Shown in pieces: positions 18,305-63,976 of a stretch of 64,000 nt of DNA (position 1 is the stretch's first letter; every line of letters begins with the position of its first letter). The notes below the pieces were generated by a model. The model searched no databases and was not told the DNA's origin. It worked only from the letters and a program-made list of their open reading frames with translations. Origin of the DNA: a bacterium (GTDB lineage Bacteria; Patescibacteriota; Microgenomatia; Levybacterales; UBA12049); assembly GCA_021780675.1 (NCBI GenBank), contig JAJXYH010000034.1, positions 19,889-83,888 on the forward strand, given 5' to 3'. The position numbers were made by a program, and so were the translations under genes.

Positions 18305-18375
18305 TCGGGGTGCCAGGAATTGAACCTGGCCCACACGCACCCCATGCGCGCATTCTACCGATAAACTACACCCCG
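18305..18375 (-). tRNA. tRNA-Pro (anticodon GGG)
   Basis: The reverse complement folds as a cloverleaf: acceptor CGGGGTG/CACCCCG, T-arm CCAGG-TTCAATT-CCTGG, anticodon stem CGCGC/GCGTG with loop ATGGGGT, discriminator A. CCA is not encoded. Confidence 0.8.
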
Positions 18376-35231: not shown

Positions 35232-35297
35232 GATAAATTTTTTGTTATAATAATTTAAGATGAAAATTATAAATTTTATAAGAAATGCAAAGAAGAA

Positions 35298-35317
35298 CCT
35301 CGTAATGAGGGGTTTTG
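35298..35317 (+). terminator. intrinsic terminator-like hairpin
   Basis: CCTC-GTAAT-GAGG followed by GGTTTTG, downstream of the PPAT fusion gene. Confidence 0.35.
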
Positions 35318-35352
35318 TCTTTGTCTAAATAGAAAAAAATTAAAAAGATAAA

Positions 35353-35375
35353 CCCCTCAAACGGAGGGGTTTTTT
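35353..35375 (+). terminator. rho-independent terminator
   Basis: CCCCTC-AAACG-GAGGGG followed by TTTTTT. Confidence 0.65.
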
Positions 35376-37850: not shown

Positions 37851-38435
37851 TTGAAATTTATGAAAAATTTAACTTTTGTTACCGGAAATAAAGCAAAGGC
37901 AAAGGATGTGCAAAAAATATTAGATTTTCCAATAAATATTGTCGATTTGGATCTGGATGAGATTCAGGAATTAGATTTAGAAAAAGTAGCTACACATAAA
38001 GTTTCGGAAGCTTATAAAAAAATAAACAGCCCTGTATTTGTTGATGATGTAGGTTTTTATATTGAGGCGTGGAATAATTTTCCAGGACCGTTAATTAAAT
38101 GGGTGCTTAAATCCGGAAACGGAAGATCTGAGTTATTATTAGAGATGTTAAAAAATGTAAAGCAAAGAAATGCAACCGCAAAATTGGCAGTAGCCTATCA
38201 TGACGGTAAAAAAATACGTTGTTTTTTGGGAGAAGTGAGAGGAACAATAGCAACTGAAGTAAGAGCTGGGAATAATTTTGGGTTTGGGTGGGATTCGATT
38301 TTTATCCCGAAAGGATTTAATAAGACTTATGGAGAAATGACTTTTAAAGAAAAAAATAAAATTTCCCATAGAAGAAAAGCATTTGATAAATTCAAAAAAT
38401 ACTTGGATAGTCAAAGAACAAAAAAAGAGCTATAA
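37851..38435 (+). CDS. rdgB: non-canonical purine NTP pyrophosphatase (Ham1/RdgB family)
   Basis: FVTGNKAKAKDV N-terminus. The FGWDSIF and ISHRRKA motifs are typical of ITPase. Confidence 0.8.
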   Translation: MKFMKNLTFVTGNKAKAKDVQKILDFPINIVDLDLDEIQELDLEKVATHKVSEAYKKINSPVFVDDVGFYIEAWNNFPGPLIKWVLKSGNGRSELLLEMLKNVKQRNATAKLAVAYHDGKKIRCFLGEVRGTIATEVRAGNNFGFGWDSIFIPKGFNKTYGEMTFKEKNKISHRRKAFDKFKKYLDSQRTKKEL

Positions 38436-38442
38436 TTGCTTT

Positions 38443-39696
38443 ATGTTAGACATAAAATATCTTCGCGAAAACGCAAAAAAAGTTGAGAAAAAAGCAAAAG
38501 ATAAAGGAATTGTTATTGATATTTCAGAGGTTTTAAAACTAGATGAGGAGTTTAGAAAACTTTCAACTCAAGCTCAAAGTTTAAGAGAAGAAAAGAATAC
38601 TCTTTCTTCTGGTATTAAAGGAAAACCAACGGAAGTACAAATTAAAAAAGGAAAAGAAATTAAAGAACAATTAGAAAGCTTAGATAAAAAACTTGCAGAA
38701 AAAGAACCTCAGTTAAATAAATTATTACTTCAAATTCCAAATCCCGCCAAAGACGATGTTAAGGTTGGTAAGAATGATACCGAAAACGACGTTTTAAGAA
38801 AAGTTGGAACGCCGCCAAAATTTAAATTTACCCCCAAAGACCATTTAACCCTAGGAGAGAATTTAGACATTATTGATGTAGAAAGAGCATCAAAGATTTC
38901 CGGCGCAAGATTTTATTTTTTAAAAAATGACGCTGCACTTTTGGAATTTGCACTAAGACAATTTGCTTTTGATTTACTTCTTAAAGAAGGATTTACGCCT
39001 GTTGTTCCCCCGGTTTTAATTAAAACTGAAGTAATGAAAGGCTTAGGTTACATGGAAAACGGTGGGGACGAAGATATGTATATTTTAGAAAAAGACGGTT
39101 TGGTTTTGGTTGGAACAAGTGAGCAATCGATTGTTTCGATGCACAAAGATGAAGTATTAAATATTAAAGATCTTCCCAAAAGATATGTTGGTTTTTCTAC
39201 TTGTTTTAGAAGGGAAGCAGGAAGTTATGGTAAAGATACAAGAGGAATTTTACGTGCGCACCAGTTCGATAAAATCGAAATGGTTTCGTTTGTCAAAGAT
39301 GGTGACGATGATAAAGAACACGATTATTTACTTTCTTTAGAAGAAAAACTTTTACAGGTTTTAGAAATTCCTTATCAGGTTGTAAAAATGTGTACGGGAG
39401 ATTTAGGAATTCCCGCTGCAAGAAAATATGATTTGGAGGCTTGGATACCATCGGAAAATAAGTACAGGGAAGTAACATCCACTTCAACTACAACAGCCTT
39501 TCAGTCCCGAAGATTAAATATAAAATATCAAGACGGAAGTGAAAAAAAATACGTAAATATTTTAAACGGAACGGCATTTTCAACCCGCCCGATTATTGCA
39601 ATATTGGAAAATTATCAACAAGAAGATGGAAGTATTAAAATTCCGGATATTTTACAAAAATATTTAGGTAAAAAAGTAATAAAAAAAGAAAAATAA
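38443..39696 (+). CDS. serS: seryl-tRNA synthetase
   Basis: MLDIKYLREN... coiled-coil arm and class II motifs (FRREAGS, GTAFSTRPIIAILENYQ). The internal ATG at 38443 is preferred over the track start, which overlaps rdgB. Confidence 0.9.
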   Translation: MLDIKYLRENAKKVEKKAKDKGIVIDISEVLKLDEEFRKLSTQAQSLREEKNTLSSGIKGKPTEVQIKKGKEIKEQLESLDKKLAEKEPQLNKLLLQIPNPAKDDVKVGKNDTENDVLRKVGTPPKFKFTPKDHLTLGENLDIIDVERASKISGARFYFLKNDAALLEFALRQFAFDLLLKEGFTPVVPPVLIKTEVMKGLGYMENGGDEDMYILEKDGLVLVGTSEQSIVSMHKDEVLNIKDLPKRYVGFSTCFRREAGSYGKDTRGILRAHQFDKIEMVSFVKDGDDDKEHDYLLSLEEKLLQVLEIPYQVVKMCTGDLGIPAARKYDLEAWIPSENKYREVTSTSTTTAFQSRRLNIKYQDGSEKKYVNILNGTAFSTRPIIAILENYQQEDGSIKIPDILQKYLGKKVIKKEK

Positions 39697-39920
39697 TTAT
39701 GTAATTTTTGCCTCTAATTCAACCTAAACGTATCATTTTGAAGCTAACAAAAAATCTTGACATAGTATATAAAATAAATCATTATAAAGTTGACCCTTAA
39801 TAGTAATATTAAAGTTAAAAATGAAAATGTTTGTCTTAAAGACGAATTAATAAATTACTAAACTTGTAAGTCTAGATAGACAGATAGTTAAGTAATTTCC
39901 AAAAAGGAGGTGATTAGTCC

Positions 39921-39953
39921 ATGGCAAAGAAAAAAGCAAAGAAAAAGAAATAG
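39921..39953 (+). CDS. poly-lysine micro-ORF MAKKKAKKKK with consensus Shine-Dalgarno
   Basis: AAGGAGGTGA lies 7 nt upstream of the ATG. Ten codons, eight of them Lys (AAA/AAG), then TAG. Confidence 0.35.
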   Translation: MAKKKAKKKK

Positions 39954-40036
39954 TTGGTAAGTAATTTGGAACATTACCAATTATTACCAATTGATCAATT
40001 GGTAAATCCCCTGCCTCAAATGGTGGGGGATTTTTT
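39954..40036 (+). promoter_or_regulatory. nested palindromes plus intrinsic terminator in the secA leader
   Basis: TTGGTAA/TTACCAA arms occur four times. This includes the perfect 22-bp palindrome TTACCAATTGATCAATTGGTAA (39984-40005). The terminator AATCCCC-N13-GGGGGATT with a T6 tract follows at 40005-40036. Confidence 0.45.
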
Positions 40037-40079
40037 ATATCCTCAAGTATGATAAAATTAAGTAACTAAAATTCTACTT

Positions 40080-42791
40080 ATGTTAAATATTTTCGGAAAA
40101 TTATTTGATTCGAATGAAAGGGAACTTGATAAAATACTTCCTATTGTTGAAAAAATAAATTCTTTAGAAAAAGAAACTAAAAAATTAAAAGATAAAGATT
40201 TTCCCAAAAAGACCCAGGAGTTTAAAGAAAGATTAGAAGAAGGGGAACCGCTTGAAAATATTCTTCCCGAGGCTTTTGCTTTAGTTAGAGAAGCGTCGTT
40301 TAGAACAATTGGACAAAGACACTACGATGTTCAGCTTGTTGCCGGTATTTCCTTGGCGCTTGGAAAAATTGCCGAACAAAAAACAGGAGAGGGTAAAACA
40401 TTGTCTGCTACTCCCGCATTATATTTACACGCATTAACAGGTAAAAATGTTCATCTTGTTACGGTAAACGACTATTTGGCAAGAAGAGATGTCGGCTGGA
40501 TGGGGCCTATTTTTAATTTTTTAGGTATCACAGTTGCCTCAATAATTAGCGAAGAATCTTTTGTATTTGATATGGATTTTAAAAATAATCAGGTAACGGA
40601 TTATAGGTTAATGCACCTTCGGCCAATAAATAGAAAAGAAGCTTATGAAAAAGATGTTGTTTATGGCATAAACTCCGAATTTGGATTTGATTATTTAAGG
40701 GATAATATGGCGCAGGATTTACAATCTCAAGTTCAGAGGGGCTTTTACTATGCAATTGTCGATGAGGTTGATTCGGTATTAATTGATGAAGCAAGAACTC
40801 CTCATATTATCTCTGCCCCCGATGAAGCACCAACGCAAAAATATTATGAATATGCAAAGCTGGTAGATAAATTAACGCCTGAGATAGATTATAAAATTGA
40901 TGAAAAATTAAGAACAGCCCATTTAACCGAGCACGGGATAGGAAAAATAGAAAAAATTTATGGGGTAGCAAATATCTACGAAAAAGATTTTGATACGGTT
41001 TATCATTTAGAGGCTGCATTAAAAGCACGTACGCTTTTTCATAAAGAGAAAGATTACATTGTAAAAGAGGGCGAAGTAATTTTAGTTGATGAATTTACGG
41101 GTAGACTTATGACCGGAAGAAGGTTATCTGAAGGACTTCATCAGGCAATTGAAGCAAAAGAAGGAGTTTCAATTCAAAAAGAGTCTAAGACATTGGCAAC
41201 AGTTTCCTTGCAGAACTATTTTAGGATGTATGAACGCTTGGCAGGAATGACCGGAACCGCGGTAACAGAAGCAGAGGAGTTTCACAAAATTTATAAACTG
41301 GATGTAGTTGTAATTCCAACACATAAGAATTTAGTTAGAAAGGATTTGGCAGATGCAATTTATAAAACTTCACGGGCAAAATATACAGCAGTCGCAGCCG
41401 AAATTGAACAAGCTCACAAAACCGGACAGCCGGTCTTGGTTGGAACAACCTCGATTGAAAAAAATGAAATCATTGCCGAACTTTTAAAACGAAAGGGCAT
41501 AAAACACGAAGTATTAAATGCTAAGAATCATACAAAAGAAGCAGAGATTATTTCTAAAGCCGGTGAAAAAGGTGCCGTAACAGTTGCAACCAATATGGCG
41601 GGAAGAGGCGTTGATATTATTTTAGGGGGAGAGGCGCCTAAAAATGAAGACGGTACTGACAAAAAAGGAACCAAAGAGTGGGAAGCTTGGGAAAAGCATC
41701 ACAATGAAGTTTTGAGCCTAGGGGGACTTTATGTAATTGGAACGGAAAGACACGAGTCGCGAAGAATAGATAACCAATTAAGAGGAAGGTCAGGTAGGCA
41801 AGGTGATCCCGGTAAATCTCAATTTTTTGTGTCTTTGGATGATGAAATAATGAGGCTTTTTGGTGGCGATACAATATCAGGTCTTATGACCAGGTTTAAT
41901 ATGCCGGAAGATGTGCCGCTTTCCCATCCGTTAGTAACGAGGGCAATAGAACAAGCGCAAATAAAAGTTGAAGGTTATAATTTTGATATCAGGAAACATT
42001 TGGTTGATTACGACGATGTTTTAAATAAGCAAAGGGAAATAATTTACTCAAGAAGACAAAACATTTTACGATCCGATGATAATCCCCAAAAACTAAAATC
42101 GGAAGTATTAGAAAAAATTCATAGCGCAATTTTGGCAAGTGTAACAATGAATTCCGAAAATTATATGCAAACCTCACCTTCAGAAACTATAGCAACGGAA
42201 TTTGCAACGATTATTCCTTTTGATGAAAATTCATTAAATCAAATTAAATCGCAGCTTGAACAATTAACCAGAATTGATCAAAGAGGAGAATTTTTATATG
42301 CGGTTTCCGACGATATTTATAATGCCAGAGAAAAGCAAGTCGGACCGGATATGGCTCGCCAAATCGAAAAATTTGTTTCGCTTTCTGTTATTGATAATCT
42401 TTGGATCGACCATTTGGATGCAATAGATAATTTGCGCCAAGGGATTGGTTTAAGGGGTTACGGTCAAAAAGATCCGCTAGTTGAATATAAAAATGAAGCT
42501 TTTATTATGTTTGAAAAACTTATTAACGGAATAGATGATGAAATTGTACATAGAATTTTTAAAATTTCTGTTCAGGAGCCACCTGAAGTTCATGCGCAGC
42601 ATGCGCATTTGGTTGAACAGGCTGCAGGTTCAAACATTGCTAGTGAAGTATCAACCGGTTCTACGAGTACCGGTTCCGCTGCATCTACAACTGCTAATAG
42701 TTCATCAACGTCTAAGAAAAAACTCGGACGAAACGATCCTTGCTGGTGCGGATCGGGTAAAAAATACAAAAAATGTCATTGGCCTAACTGA
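40080..42791 (+). CDS. secA: preprotein translocase ATPase SecA
   Basis: 903 aa with DEAD-motor motifs and the C-terminal zinc finger CWCGSGKKYKKCH. Confidence 0.95.
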   Translation: MLNIFGKLFDSNERELDKILPIVEKINSLEKETKKLKDKDFPKKTQEFKERLEEGEPLENILPEAFALVREASFRTIGQRHYDVQLVAGISLALGKIAEQKTGEGKTLSATPALYLHALTGKNVHLVTVNDYLARRDVGWMGPIFNFLGITVASIISEESFVFDMDFKNNQVTDYRLMHLRPINRKEAYEKDVVYGINSEFGFDYLRDNMAQDLQSQVQRGFYYAIVDEVDSVLIDEARTPHIISAPDEAPTQKYYEYAKLVDKLTPEIDYKIDEKLRTAHLTEHGIGKIEKIYGVANIYEKDFDTVYHLEAALKARTLFHKEKDYIVKEGEVILVDEFTGRLMTGRRLSEGLHQAIEAKEGVSIQKESKTLATVSLQNYFRMYERLAGMTGTAVTEAEEFHKIYKLDVVVIPTHKNLVRKDLADAIYKTSRAKYTAVAAEIEQAHKTGQPVLVGTTSIEKNEIIAELLKRKGIKHEVLNAKNHTKEAEIISKAGEKGAVTVATNMAGRGVDIILGGEAPKNEDGTDKKGTKEWEAWEKHHNEVLSLGGLYVIGTERHESRRIDNQLRGRSGRQGDPGKSQFFVSLDDEIMRLFGGDTISGLMTRFNMPEDVPLSHPLVTRAIEQAQIKVEGYNFDIRKHLVDYDDVLNKQREIIYSRRQNILRSDDNPQKLKSEVLEKIHSAILASVTMNSENYMQTSPSETIATEFATIIPFDENSLNQIKSQLEQLTRIDQRGEFLYAVSDDIYNAREKQVGPDMARQIEKFVSLSVIDNLWIDHLDAIDNLRQGIGLRGYGQKDPLVEYKNEAFIMFEKLINGIDDEIVHRIFKISVQEPPEVHAQHAHLVEQAAGSNIASEVSTGSTSTGSAASTTANSSSTSKKKLGRNDPCWCGSGKKYKKCHWPN

Positions 42792-63472: not shown

Positions 63473-63976
63473 ATGGATAAAAGTAAAGAAACGATTGAAG
63501 TAAAAAAAGAAGAAACTGAAGAAGAAACAAACGATAAAACCTTAATTCACGATTTTAGTACACAGACTGCAAAAAACGCATTCACTCCCAAGATAATCGG
63601 TCTTTTAGCCTTAGTTATTATTGTAGGAATAGCAACAGGATTTTTACTATCCGGAAGATCTTCTTCGGTAAGTTCAGGAAATAGCTTAGGTTCGATTTTA
63701 AGTGGGTCTTCGATACCAAAAGGAACTGTTGTAGGATCTAGTGATACCGCAACTTTTAAAGACACGGCTGAAGGAACACTAAAAGAAGGTGGCATAGATG
63801 GAGAAGGAGCATATCATTTAGAAAGACCGGGTGGAGATAGTCAAAATGTCTATTTAACCTCATCAATTGTAGATTTATCTAAATATATTGGTAAAAAAAT
63901 TAAGGTATGGGGGCAAACCCAAAAAGCTCAAACTGCAGGTTGGTTAATGGACGTTGGGAGAATTGAGGTTTTGTAA
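63473..63976 (+). CDS. hypothetical membrane-anchored protein
   Basis: 167 aa with an acidic N-terminus, one TM helix (IIGLLALVIIVGIATGFLL), and a Ser/Gly-rich region. Confidence 0.4.
   Translation: MDKSKETIEVKKEETEEETNDKTLIHDFSTQTAKNAFTPKIIGLLALVIIVGIATGFLLSGRSSSVSSGNSLGSILSGSSIPKGTVVGSSDTATFKDTAEGTLKEGGIDGEGAYHLERPGGDSQNVYLTSSIVDLSKYIGKKIKVWGQTQKAQTAGWLMDVGRIEVL

What the first reader, a model, noticed from the sequence alone, without database searches (positions are those of the whole stretch)
39890..40079. secA leader: a strongly ribosome-bound 10-codon poly-lysine micro-ORF followed by nested TTGGTAA/TTACCAA palindromes and an intrinsic terminator
A near-consensus SD (AAGGAGGTGA, 7-nt spacing) drives ATG GCA AAG AAA AAA GCA AAG AAA AAG AAA TAG. 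Immediately downstream, the heptamer TTGGTAA and its complement occur four times. They form alternative hairpins, including a perfect 22-bp palindrome (39984-40005). A terminator (AATCCCC...GGGGGATT plus T6) follows 44 nt before secA. secA in other bacteria is controlled by arrest peptides (SecM, MifM-type logic). Consecutive AAA/AAG codons are known to stall or slip ribosomes. The arrangement looks like a translation-coupled attenuator for secA. Alternatively, the perfect palindrome could be a dimeric repressor site. The peptide could also be a tiny basic ribosome-associated peptide.
Basis: partly seen in the sequence, partly recalled or inferred. Interest (0 to 1): 0.7.

Follow-up and report, generated by a model that had tools for sequence, protein, structure and literature searches.

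The report
Conserved oligolysine micro-gene upstream of secA
A tiny gene with strong expression signals, encoding little more than a run of seven to ten lysines and followed by a nearly invariant pair of RNA hairpins and a terminator, sits just upstream of secA in over a hundred Levybacteria (candidate phyla radiation) genomes; it looks like a self-contained unit of unknown function, not a read-through switch for secA.

Summary
There is an 11-nt Shine-Dalgarno (SD) sequence, the ORF MAKKKAKKKK-stop, four TTGGTAA/TTACCAA heptamers, a perfect 22-bp palindrome and a strong intrinsic terminator. The whole arrangement is conserved in 105 distinct Levybacteria/Microgenomates loci, always next to secA. 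Comparison does not support a secA attenuator. The alternative hairpins never involve the terminator stem. Masking a ribosome footprint at the stop codon flips hairpin P1 to P2 but leaves the terminator intact. secA has its own extended -10 promoter, ending 6-10 nt before its ATG in 80 of 99 loci, which implies a leaderless mRNA. Relatives that lack the cassette have the same promoter. The ORF is under frame and charge selection: K 70%, R 6%, D+E 0.2%, and length 9-34 aa. Its Lys codons are 64% AAG, against 12% in neighbouring genes, and no A-run exceeds 9. This keeps it below the slippage threshold and argues against Lys-codon or slippage sensing. My best reading is an autonomous, highly expressed micro-gene for a polycationic peptide, with a translation-responsive structured 3' RNA. 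Its terminator abuts the leaderless secA promoter. It matched no Rfam, Pfam, NCBIfam or PDB entry and none of the papers searched. Function remains inferred. The invariant UUGAUCAA centre and the tight linkage to secA are unexplained.

The parts
38383..39696 (+). serS (seryl-tRNA synthetase), the upstream neighbour; the true start is probably the ATG at 38443
   Evidence: ORF list. serS lies upstream of the cassette in most of the 72 metagenome loci. Loci without serS upstream keep a remnant of its 3' end.
39700..39756 (+). Conserved upstream box: TGTAATTTTTG, CAACCTAAAC, TTTTGAAGC and an A-rich tract abutting the -35. It resembles an UP element plus something unexplained.
   Evidence: Consensus from 101 loci: TgaTTTTTg-N10-CAAtCTAAAct-N6-tTTTGAAGCaaagaAaaattCTTGACAAA.
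39757..39785 (+). Predicted sigma-70-type promoter of the micro-gene: -35 TTGACA (39757-62), 17-nt spacer, -10 CATTAT (39780-85). The predicted TSS is near 39792.
   Evidence: Best promoter match in the region, 10 of 12. CTTGACAAA and CAnnAT are conserved, and sequence becomes variable immediately downstream. The TSS is not measured.
39792..39903 (+). 5' UTR with stem-loops (39829-39847 and 39853-39897). Its length is lineage-specific.
   Evidence: Fold of the whole predicted transcript: -62.9 kcal/mol, z = -5.9. 5' UTRs are 20-155 nt in relatives and usually carry a CTGCCC...GGCAG-type hairpin. This window carries a partial copy of the P1 arm (D3/I5).
39904..39914 (+). Extended Shine-Dalgarno sequence AAGGAGGTGAT, 11 nt complementary to the canonical 16S 3' tail
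   Evidence: Only exact copy in the window. At least 9 nt of complementarity in 71 of 105 elements and 11-13 nt in 50 of 105. Spacing from GTGA to the ATG is 5-9 nt.
39921..39953 (+). Micro-ORF MAKKKAKKKK plus TAG
   Evidence: 105 unique homologous ORFs of 9-34 aa. The stop is always in frame and lies 0-2 nt from P1 in 94 of 105. Composition is K 70%, R 6%, D+E 0.17%. Lys codons are AAG 539 against AAA 303, versus 16 against 112 in secA+serS.
39950..39984 (+). Hairpin P1: the 5' arm (segment A, TTGGTAA) starts in the stop codon, and the 3' arm is segment B1 (TTACCAA)
   Evidence: MFE fold. The basal helix is 96.6% paired across 77 sequences, with AU-to-GC compensation. There are 52 distinct apical sequences, nearly all forming their own stems.
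39985..40004 (+). Hairpin P2: the core of the 22-bp palindrome 39984-40005. Segment B2 pairs with segment A' as an 8-bp stem with a GAUC loop. The centre UUGAUCAA is invariant.
   Evidence: The invariant columns are TA.CAA.TGATC..TTG in 77 sequences. RNAalifold gives 8 pairs with one double compensation, in L008.
40005..40036 (+). Intrinsic terminator: 11-bp GC-rich stem, 6-nt loop and T6
   Evidence: it is the strongest perfect-stem terminator in the 64 kb. A GC hairpin plus T-tract is present in 99 elements with different sequences, and 79 of 99 have 6 or more T.
40050..40072 (+). secA promoter elements: extended -10 TGATAAAAT (40050-58) and a second TAAAAT (40067-72) 7 nt before the ATG
   Evidence: TGnTAnnnT is found in 91 of 99 relatives, and its end lies 6-10 nt from the secA ATG in 80. 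Relatives without the cassette have the same promoter type.
40080..42791 (+). secA (903 aa), the downstream neighbour; not part of the micro-gene transcript as predicted
   Evidence: Relatives share 63-84% identity.

Best explanation
This is an autonomous, conserved micro-gene cassette, not a leader of secA.

Shown or directly read from sequence:
- It has its own promoter region: an UP-like box, a consensus -35 and a CAnnAT -10.
- It has a 5' stem-loop and an unusually long Shine-Dalgarno sequence.
- It has a 9-34-codon ORF whose only conserved property is a run of Lys/Arg.
- The stop codon is buried in the foot of hairpin P1.
- A second hairpin, P2, uses the same or a duplicated 3' arm and has an invariant UUGAUCAA centre.
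- An intrinsic terminator follows, and its T-tract runs into the extended -10 promoter of a secA mRNA that is leaderless or nearly so.

Inferred:
- Transcription normally ends at this terminator, and secA is initiated afresh.
- The ORF is translated efficiently and in frame. Its product, (M)A/P-K7-10, is selected for positive charge. It most likely acts by charge on RNA, ribosomes or DNA, in the manner of the tiny unannotated basic ribosomal proteins (bS22/eL41, bL37) or protamine-like counter-ions.
- To reach the stop codon the ribosome must melt P1. In the common single-B form this hands segment B over to A', so P1 switches to P2. The 3' RNA domain therefore reports whether the message is being translated. 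It probably sets message lifetime or output. It does not change termination.
For: Conservation and linkage. 113 elements (105 unique) were found by a secA-first search and by an independent palindrome-first metagenome search. All sit upstream of secA.

Translation.
- The start is ATG in 103 and GTG in 2, placed 5-9 nt after GTGA.
- The second residue is Ala (89) or Pro (16).
- ORF length varies from 9 to 34 codons, even between near-identical genomes, yet the frame is always kept. The stop abuts P1 in 94 of 105.
- Composition is K 70%, R 6% and D+E 0.17%, although GAA/GAG would fit a purine tract equally well.
- Lys codons are 64% AAG, against 12% in secA+serS. The longest A-run is 9 or fewer in all elements. 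That is below the A11 needed for ribosome sliding (PMC4363877).

Own unit.
- The promoter region is conserved.
- The terminator is the strongest in the 64 kb.
- It is never in competition with other pairings.

secA independent.
- The extended -10 ends 6-10 nt from the ATG in 80 of 99 loci.
- The same promoter is present in cassette-less relatives.
- Leaderless genes are common in this genome.

Switch. Masking 15 nt from the stop moves B pairing from A (0.74 to 0.02) to A' (0.24 to 0.90). P1 is supported by compensatory changes and 52 distinct apical stems. P2 is supported by L008.

ORF is the persistent core. L039 keeps the ORF but has lost the palindrome. No locus keeps the palindrome without the ORF.

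Precedent. Unannotated basic ribosomal proteins of about 30 aa and 61% K/R exist (PMC10618245).
Against: - There is no expression, TSS, 3'-end or peptide data. The promoter, terminator and leaderless status of secA are consensus-based predictions.
- The most conserved part is the RNA/DNA 3' domain (13 invariant positions), not the peptide. This is unusual for a gene whose product is the protein.
- A peptide of 8-9 residues has no positional conservation and is far shorter than any known ribosomal protein. There is no homology to bS22, bL37, eL41 or anything else in Pfam, NCBIfam or PDB.
- Near-absolute linkage to secA across about 105 loci is not explained by an independent gene.
- The cassette has been lost or has decayed in several lineages (L038, L029, L035, L041, L051, L062), so it is dispensable.
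- In the window's own clade B is duplicated, so the P1/P2 switch cannot operate there.
Confidence: 0.45

Rival explanations
1. Cis-acting regulator of secA transcription that works without an antiterminator. The heavily transcribed cassette ends inside the secA promoter. It would then tune secA in one of three ways: promoter occlusion, handing terminated RNA polymerase on to the weak leaderless secA promoter, or a constitutive fraction of read-through. Translation or P1/P2 status would modulate how often polymerase arrives or terminates.
For: - Linkage to secA is almost absolute and survives loss of serS upstream.
- The T-tract ends within 0-14 nt of the TG of the extended -10 in about 75 of 95 loci.
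- Terminator strength ranges from 3 to 9 T.
- The secA -10 is TAAAAT in 59 of 86 cassette-bearing loci, against TATAAT in 4 of 10 cassette-less loci.
- Post-termination sliding and re-initiation of bacterial RNA polymerase at nearby promoters is documented (PMC6978380, PMC6978322, PMC10372574).
Against: - secA has the same leaderless promoter in relatives without the cassette.
- In L191 a 582-aa gene lies between the cassette and secA. In L179 and L066 about 450 nt intervene, and long-ORF lineages have spacers of 130-240 nt.
- No predicted structure changes terminator formation.
- This does not explain selection for a polybasic peptide.
- The -10 difference is confounded by phylogeny and rests on 10 loci.
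Confidence: 0.22
2. The functional product is the RNA: a small riboregulator or protein-binding RNA of about 150-250 nt. Its invariant UUGAUCAA/P2 module is the active site, for base-pairing, dimerisation or protein binding. The micro-ORF with its very strong SD serves only to load ribosomes that stabilise the RNA or gate exposure of that module. This would be a dual-function or ribosome-gated sRNA.
For: - The 3' domain is the most conserved sequence of the unit, with 13 invariant columns in 77 sequences, while the terminator and the P1 apex vary freely.
- UUGAUCAA persists even where A' is lost (L024, L028), and GAUC is always exposed, either in a loop or in a single-stranded linker.
- P1 plus a single-stranded linker plus a terminator is the usual architecture of an sRNA 3' end.
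- The structure is significant at z = -5.8.
- A strong SD near the 5' end is a known mRNA stabiliser (the STAB-SD principle; my own knowledge).
Against: - Composition and frame of the ORF are under clear selection for Lys/Arg, which a mere ribosome-loading ORF would not need.
- L039 keeps the ORF without the module.
- No target-like complement was found in the 64 kb beyond chance.
- No Rfam family matched.
Confidence: 0.15
3. Sensor of translation stress or of tunnel-binding compounds. A short polybasic leader is rich in +x+ (Lys/Arg-x-Lys/Arg) motifs, on which drug-bound or compromised ribosomes stall. The position of the ribosome, either stalled within the ORF or at the stop, would select P1 or P2, as in erm/cat-type leaders.
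For: - Size (9-12 codons), strong SD and stop-adjacent hairpins resemble the erm, cat and cmlA leader ORFs (my own knowledge).
- Iterated Lys codons are decoded slowly even as AAG (PMC4363877).
- The ribosome-position-dependent P1/P2 flip is predicted.
Against: - No resistance or stress gene follows.
- The flip exposes no RBS and leaves the terminator unchanged.
- secA is leaderless with its own promoter.
- The switch is disabled in the window's clade.
Confidence: 0.06
4. One reading: a classical leader-peptide transcription attenuator. Ribosome stalling on Lys codons would choose between an antiterminator and the terminator, and so control read-through into secA.
For: The layout is superficially right: a run of one amino acid's codons, three mutually complementary segments and a terminator upstream of a gene. 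Weak structural resemblance to attenuator families in Rfam (PyrR at 19.6 bits against a gathering score of 54).
Against: - The alternative pairings (A:B versus B:A') do not include either terminator arm. Terminator pairing is 0.89 when free and 0.85 with the ribosome footprint masked.
- In this window all three hairpins coexist.
- Lys-to-Arg replacement is common, and AAG is preferred.
- secA has its own promoter, lacks an SD, and has no link to lysine supply.
Confidence: 0.04
5. The 22-bp palindrome is a DNA operator for a dimeric transcription factor that controls secA or the cassette.
For: It is a perfect palindrome with strong sequence conservation of both halves and of the centre. Little covariation is seen in P2.
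Against: - Conservation is asymmetric. Position +4 is A/G/T/C on the 3' half, while its mirror on the 5' half is about 90% T.
- T-to-C changes in the 5' half are compensated in the upstream A arm, which is an RNA-level signature.
- The distance to the secA -10 varies continuously, about 40-73 nt and more, with no helical phasing.
- There is only one copy in 64 kb.
- The A-B spacer varies from 8 to more than 30 nt and has its own stems.
Confidence: 0.05

Closest known systems
Leader-peptide transcription attenuators (trpL, hisL, pheL, thrL type)
   Same: A very short ORF with a run of one amino acid's codons, followed by segments that can pair in alternative ways and by an intrinsic terminator. 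The ribosome's position decides which hairpin forms.
   Different: The alternative hairpins exclude the terminator. The run is charge-conserved (K/R), not codon-conserved. The downstream gene has its own leaderless promoter and is unrelated to lysine metabolism.
Secretion-monitoring arrest peptides (SecM-secA, MifM-yidC2, VemP-secDF2)
   Same: A small ORF immediately upstream of a gene of the secretion machinery.
   Different: There is no signal or transmembrane segment. A peptide of 9-12 aa cannot leave the exit tunnel to be pulled. No RBS-masking hairpin lies over secA, which has no SD. A terminator and a promoter lie in between.
Tiny, highly basic, often unannotated ribosomal proteins (bS22/eL41/mS38, bL37, bTHX)
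   Same: They are unannotated by gene callers and have at least 60% Lys/Arg. The genes carry strong expression signals and MAK/MPV-type N-termini. The long variants here (24-34 aa) are in the same size range (PMC10618245).
   Different: No detectable homology and no positional conservation. The common form has only 9-12 aa, too short for the 24-33-aa helices of those proteins. Ribosome binding is untested. The cassette is dispensable in some lineages.
Drug-sensing leader ORFs (ermCL, ermDL, cat-86 and cmlA leaders) and +x+ arrest motifs
   Same: ORFs of 8-19 codons with a good SD. A ribosome on the ORF remodels adjacent hairpins. Polybasic motifs are prone to stalling.
   Different: The remodelling exposes no RBS and does not affect termination. 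No resistance gene follows.
Dual-function sRNAs that encode small peptides (SgrS/SgrT, RNAIII/delta-haemolysin, SR1/SR1P)
   Same: A short terminated transcript that carries both a small translated ORF and a conserved structured RNA module.
   Different: No target or seed has been identified. The peptide is low-complexity oligolysine. There is no homology to any Rfam family.

Membership tests
Leader-peptide transcription attenuator | A mutually exclusive antiterminator and terminator that share a segment | tested here: not met
   Summed pair probability between the terminator region and upstream sequence has a median below 1 bp. The terminator's 3' arm is paired locally at 0.89 when free and 0.85 with 15 nt from the stop masked. 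All three hairpins coexist in the window.
Leader-peptide transcription attenuator | Leader ORF enriched in codons of the amino acid that is sensed | tested here: inconclusive
   Lys makes up 70% of residues. However, Arg substitutes freely (6%), and AAG rather than the genome-typical AAA is used. This fits selection on charge, not on Lys-tRNA.
Leader-peptide transcription attenuator | The regulated gene depends on read-through and has no promoter of its own between terminator and gene | tested here: not met
   An extended -10 lies between terminator and secA in 91 of 99 loci. It is at leaderless distance in 80. The same promoter occurs in cassette-less relatives. This is a prediction; no TSS was measured.
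SecM/MifM/VemP-type monitoring substrate | N-terminal signal or transmembrane segment that engages the secretion machinery | tested here: not met
   The peptides are 9-34 aa of K, R, A and T with no hydrophobic stretch.
SecM/MifM/VemP-type monitoring substrate | The arrested ribosome unmasks the RBS of the downstream gene on the same mRNA | tested here: not met
   A terminator and a promoter intervene. The -10 hexamer occupies the place where the secA SD would be.
bS22/eL41, bL37, bTHX tiny basic ribosomal proteins | Sequence homology to the family | tested here: not met
   No Pfam or NCBIfam hit at E up to 10. No PDB chain at E up to 10. Low-complexity queries limit sensitivity.
bS22/eL41, bL37, bTHX tiny basic ribosomal proteins | Length of about 24-33 aa forming an RNA-embedded helix | tested here: not met
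   The window peptide has 10 aa. The mode across 105 loci is 9-11 aa, and only about 10 loci have 23 aa or more.
bS22/eL41, bL37, bTHX tiny basic ribosomal proteins | Stoichiometric association with ribosomes | not testable with these tools
   This needs ribosome purification with peptidomics, or cryo-EM, from an uncultivated CPR organism.
Intrinsic (Rho-independent) terminator | GC-rich hairpin immediately followed by a U-tract | tested here: met
   Window: 11-bp stem with 6 GC pairs plus T6. Hairpin plus T-tract is present in 99 elements, and 79 have 6 or more T. Function was not measured.
Any Rfam RNA family | Score at or above the family's gathering threshold | tested here: not met
   The only gathering-level hit in the window is a tRNA. 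The best hits in the region score 19.6 bits or less, against thresholds of 39-88.
Palindromic DNA operator of a dimeric regulator | Symmetric conservation of half-sites and fixed geometry relative to the controlled promoter | tested here: not met
   Variability of the two halves is asymmetric. The distance to the secA -10 is continuous, not phased. There is a single copy in 64 kb. Protein binding itself is not testable here.

The most novel reading that the evidence does not exclude
Levybacteria carry a dedicated high-expression cassette for a genetically encoded oligolysine, (M)AK7-10. This would be among the shortest conserved protein-coding genes known. The peptide would serve as a polyamine- or protamine-like counter-ion for ribosomes or the tightly packed nucleoid of these ultra-small cells. 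Its 3' RNA would be a three-segment device that senses its own translation. Its terminator would be fused to the leaderless secA promoter, so that polymerase released from the cassette feeds or gates secA transcription.
Probability: 0.12. Interest if true: 0.85.

Novelty: new variant of a known kind. Interest (0 to 1): 0.6.

Why it matters
If real, this is an unannotated, phylum-wide genetic element in the candidate phyla radiation. It combines a translated oligolysine ORF of minimal size, near the lower limit for a conserved gene, with an almost invariant RNA module.

It shows that gene callers and family databases miss conserved coding and RNA features in these genomes.

It offers a compact natural example of a ribosome-operated RNA switch whose output is not termination.

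Its terminator sits directly against a leaderless promoter of an essential secretion gene. That is a ready-made test case for promoter occlusion or polymerase recycling in vivo.

It also corrects an attractive but wrong annotation, "secA attenuator".

Tried and rejected
- Rfam, at gathering thresholds and at permissive E-values: nothing.
- Pfam and NCBIfam on five long peptide variants: nothing.
- PDB sequence search: nothing.
- Exact look-up of ten variants in the 15-billion-protein collection: absent, so they are unannotated.
- Literature searches for poly-Lys leaders, secA leaders, CPR small ORFs and the peptide string: no description found.
- Viral contigs: only chance matches inside genes.
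- More copies or targets of the palindrome or its 12-mer in the window: none beyond chance.
- The same promoter box elsewhere in the window: none.
- Programmed frameshift or stop read-through. Stops occur in all three frames within about 14 nt in the window. The extended frames are not conserved, because the stop type and the offset to P1 vary.
- A second mini-ORF, TTG ATC AAT TGG TAA. The variable positions are codon positions 1 and 2, not 3, and the stop is often absent, so I rejected it.
- CsrA-type GGA loops in P1: not consistently present.
- T-box or tRNA-acceptor mimicry (UGGU/ACCA): no supporting architecture.
- An anti-SD or antiterminator partner for the terminator arms: none, and the terminator sequences vary freely.
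- Activator-site geometry for the palindrome: no phasing.
Full report
**Observation**

The window is from a Candidatus Levybacteria genome (CPR/Patescibacteria, Microgenomates). Its SecA is 63-84% identical to SecA of about 65 Levybacteria-type MAGs.

serS (38383-39696) and secA (40080-42791) flank a 383-nt spacer.
- SD AAGGAGGTGA(T) at 39904-39914;
- ATG at 39921, and the ORF MAKKKAKKKK ending with TAG at 39951-53;
- TTGGTAA at 39954 and 39999, and TTACCAA at 39974 and 39984;
- a perfect 22-bp palindrome at 39984-40005;
- a terminator at 40004-40036.

The palindrome core is unique in the 64 kb, against 0.01 expected. The 3' domain folds far better than shuffles, with z = -5.8. The terminator is the best perfect-stem terminator among only about five in the window.

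**Conservation**

Upstream regions of secA in the genome loci showed the whole arrangement again and again. An independent search that started from the palindrome (TACCAATTGATCNNTTGGT) in metagenome contigs returned 120 stretches. 72 of them carry the complete element. The rest are chance matches inside genes of unrelated organisms, reverse-strand duplicates, or elements cut off at a contig end.

Together this gives 113 elements, 105 of them unique. Wherever downstream DNA is present, secA follows. It usually starts 63-100 nt after the palindrome. The exceptions are L191, where a 582-aa membrane-protein gene is inserted, L179 and L066, with spacers of about 450 nt, and the long-ORF lineages, with 130-240 nt. 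serS is usually upstream. Where it is not, a remnant of its 3' end remains.

Some relatives of similar divergence lack the element (L029, L035, L041, L051, L062, and Gottesmanbacteria L049/L050). L038 has a decayed copy with a promoter and terminator but no SD, ORF or palindrome. L039 keeps the promoter, SD, ORF and terminator but has replaced the palindrome. So the element is lineage-wide but dispensable. The ORF is its most persistent part: no locus has the palindrome without the ORF.

**The ORF is translated and selected for charge**

- The start is ATG in 103 elements and GTG in 2. It lies 5-9 nt after GGTGA, inside an SD with at least 9 nt of complementarity to the 16S tail in 71 of 105 and 11-13 nt in 50 of 105.
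- The second residue is Ala (89) or Pro (16).
- Length runs from 9 to 34 aa, with a mode of 9-11. It differs by single codons even between near-identical genomes. The tract has almost no T and so would be open in any frame, yet the stop is always in the ATG frame. It lies 0-2 nt from the P1 arm in 94 of 105.
- Residues after Met are K 70%, A 13%, R 6%, T 5% and D+E 0.17%. A purine-tract constraint at the RNA level would allow Glu (GAA/GAG) equally, so the phase-specific choice of Lys/Arg is a translation-level signal.
- Lys codons are AAG 539 against AAA 303. In this window's secA plus serS they are AAG 16 against AAA 112. No element has an A-run longer than 9, and the mode is 5.
- In E. coli systems robust ribosome sliding needs A11, and A9-A10 give little. 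Iterated AAG is decoded slowly but in frame (PMC4363877).

The sequences are therefore built to avoid slippage. This contradicts the slip-or-stall rationale of the finding, though slow decoding of the Lys run remains possible.

The peptides have no match in Pfam, NCBIfam or PDB. The long variants are absent from a 15-billion-protein collection, so they are unannotated.

**The cassette has its own promoter and terminator**

About 100 nt upstream of the predicted start is conserved in 101 loci. The consensus is TgaTTTTTg-N10-CAAtCTAAAct-N6-tTTTGAAGCaaagaAaaatt-CTTGACAAA-...AAATa.tt-CAc.AT. Sequence becomes variable directly afterwards. In the window these elements are -35 TTGACA at 39757-62 and -10 CATTAT at 39780-85.

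The 5' UTR is 20-155 nt long and usually has a stem-loop. A GC-rich hairpin plus T-tract closes the unit in 99 elements. Its sequence differs freely between loci, and 79 of 99 have 6 or more T.

**secA starts afresh**

An extended -10 (TGnTAnnnT) lies between terminator and secA in 91 of 99 loci. Its end is 6-10 nt from the secA ATG in 80, the spacing expected for a leaderless mRNA. The T-tract often supplies the TRTG/-16 region of that promoter.

The window has TGATAAAAT at 40050-58 and a second TAAAAT at 40067-72, 7 nt from the ATG. Leaderless-type promoters are common in this genome. Relatives without the cassette have the same leaderless secA promoter. There is no SD before secA that a leader could mask.

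**RNA structure**

I name the segments A (UUGGUA, starting in or next to the stop codon), B (UACCAAU) and A' (UUGGUA). A:B forms hairpin P1 and B:A' forms hairpin P2.

P1:
- Its basal helix is 96.6% paired in 77 sequences. One position switches from AU to GC in the loci where B has C.
- Its apex exists in 52 different versions that nearly all form their own stems, including inserted GC-rich helices.
- P1 is therefore an RNA helix, not a protein half-site pair.

P2:
- It is an 8-bp stem with a GAUC loop, almost invariant, with one double compensation in L008.

Distribution of forms:
- In 75 of 99 elements there is one B. P1 is favoured there, and UGAUCARUUGGUAA is single-stranded.
- In the window's clade B is tandemly duplicated, so P1, P2 and the terminator all form.
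- Long-ORF lineages lack A and have an unrelated UUGAUC...GAUCAA hairpin plus P2.
- L024 and L028 lack A' but keep UUGAUCAA.

Masking 15 nt from the stop codon, the footprint of a terminating ribosome, shifts B pairing from A (0.74 to 0.02) to A' (0.24 to 0.90). Terminator pairing stays at 0.89 versus 0.85.

So the alternative hairpins form a plausible translation-reporting switch. They are not an antiterminator/terminator pair, and the switch is not universal.

**Against a DNA operator**

- The two halves are not equally conserved. Position +4 shows all four bases, while its mirror is about 90% T.
- Changes in B are compensated in A.
- The distance from the palindrome to the secA -10 varies continuously.
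- No second site exists in 64 kb.

**Interpretation**

The best-supported statement is architectural. This is an autonomous, strongly signalled micro-gene cassette for a polycationic peptide with a structured 3' RNA, and its terminator abuts the leaderless secA promoter.

How it works is inference. I favour a peptide that acts through charge on RNA, ribosomes or DNA. Unannotated basic ribosomal proteins of about 30 aa, such as bS22, are a precedent (PMC10618245), and all CPR lack uL30 (PMC9297842). The P1/P2 device would tune message fate according to translation.

The rivals are:
- cis-coupling to secA through promoter occlusion or polymerase recycling (PMC6978380, PMC6978322, PMC10372574);
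- an RNA-centred function of the invariant UUGAUCAA module;
- a stress or drug sensor;
- the classical attenuator;
- a DNA operator.

Three things remain unexplained: the invariance of UUGAUCAA, the extra conserved box upstream of the -35, and the near-absolute linkage to secA.

**Novelty and score**

None of the databases or papers searched describes this element. It resembles known kinds (leader ORFs, tiny basic proteins, dual-function sRNAs) without meeting the defining features of any. I rate it a new variant of a known kind, with interest 0.6. It is clearly real, widely conserved and odd, but its function is open. The appealing "secA attenuator" reading does not survive comparison.

Noticed in passing
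window 11679, 17312, 17895, 21854, 27551(-), 26401(-), 35243: Many genes appear leaderless. An extended -10 (TGnTAnAAT) ends 6-11 nt before the ATG of long ORFs. A crude count gives about 25 of 80 long ORFs. SD-led genes also exist, with SDs up to 10 nt at 63473 and 35469.
   Followed up: partly
window 35243-35372: An extended -10 (TGTTATAAT) is followed by a short ORF of about 21 codons starting at 35260 (MKIINFIRNAKKNLVMRGFVFV). A bidirectional GC hairpin terminator follows at 35350-35372. This may be another unannotated small gene.
   Followed up: no
window 39700-39756 and the homologous positions in about 100 loci: A conserved box lies upstream of the cassette's -35: TGATTTTTG-N10-CAATCTAAAC-N7-TTTTGAAGC-A-rich. 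This is more than an UP element would need, and it was not found elsewhere in the window.
   Followed up: partly
L003, L021, L027, L040, L060, L068, L005, L026, L053 and others (between the terminator and the secA -10); also just after serS: The motif AGCCTC/GAGGCT recurs a few nt upstream of extended -10 promoters and in other Levybacteria intergenic regions. Spacing to the -10 is not fixed and its role is unknown.
   Followed up: no
L015, L017, L044, L060 (upstream of the cassette): Where serS is no longer the upstream neighbour, a remnant of the serS 3' end (..AGTGTAATAAAA..AGTAAAAAT..) is still present. serS-cassette-secA is therefore the ancestral order.
   Followed up: partly
L038 2600-3000; L039 2700-3000; L024 and L028 upstream of secA: Natural variants exist. 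L038 keeps the promoter and terminator but has lost the SD, ORF and palindrome. L039 keeps the ORF but has a different hairpin, UUGAU[GC stem]AUCA. L024 and L028 lack A' but keep UUGAUCAA, and L028 has it twice.
   Followed up: yes
L191 1545-3293: A 582-aa multi-pass membrane/TPR-like protein gene is inserted between the cassette terminator and secA. This is the only locus where the gene downstream of the cassette is not secA.
   Followed up: partly
window 39885-39898 versus 39954-39967; 39852-39864: The unusually long 5' UTR of this genome contains a partial copy of the P1 5' arm (TAAGTAATTT) and a segment complementary to it. Relatives do not share this.
   Followed up: no
secA promoters in 86 cassette-bearing versus 10 cassette-less loci: The -10 hexamer is TAAAAT in 59 of 86 loci with the cassette. 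It is the consensus TATAAT in 4 of 10 loci without it. This is suggestive of promoter compensation, but it is confounded by phylogeny.
   Followed up: partly
window 18305-18375 (-): The only Rfam gathering-level hit in the 64 kb is one tRNA. No rRNA, tmRNA, RNase P, SRP or 6S RNA was detected in this window.
   Followed up: no
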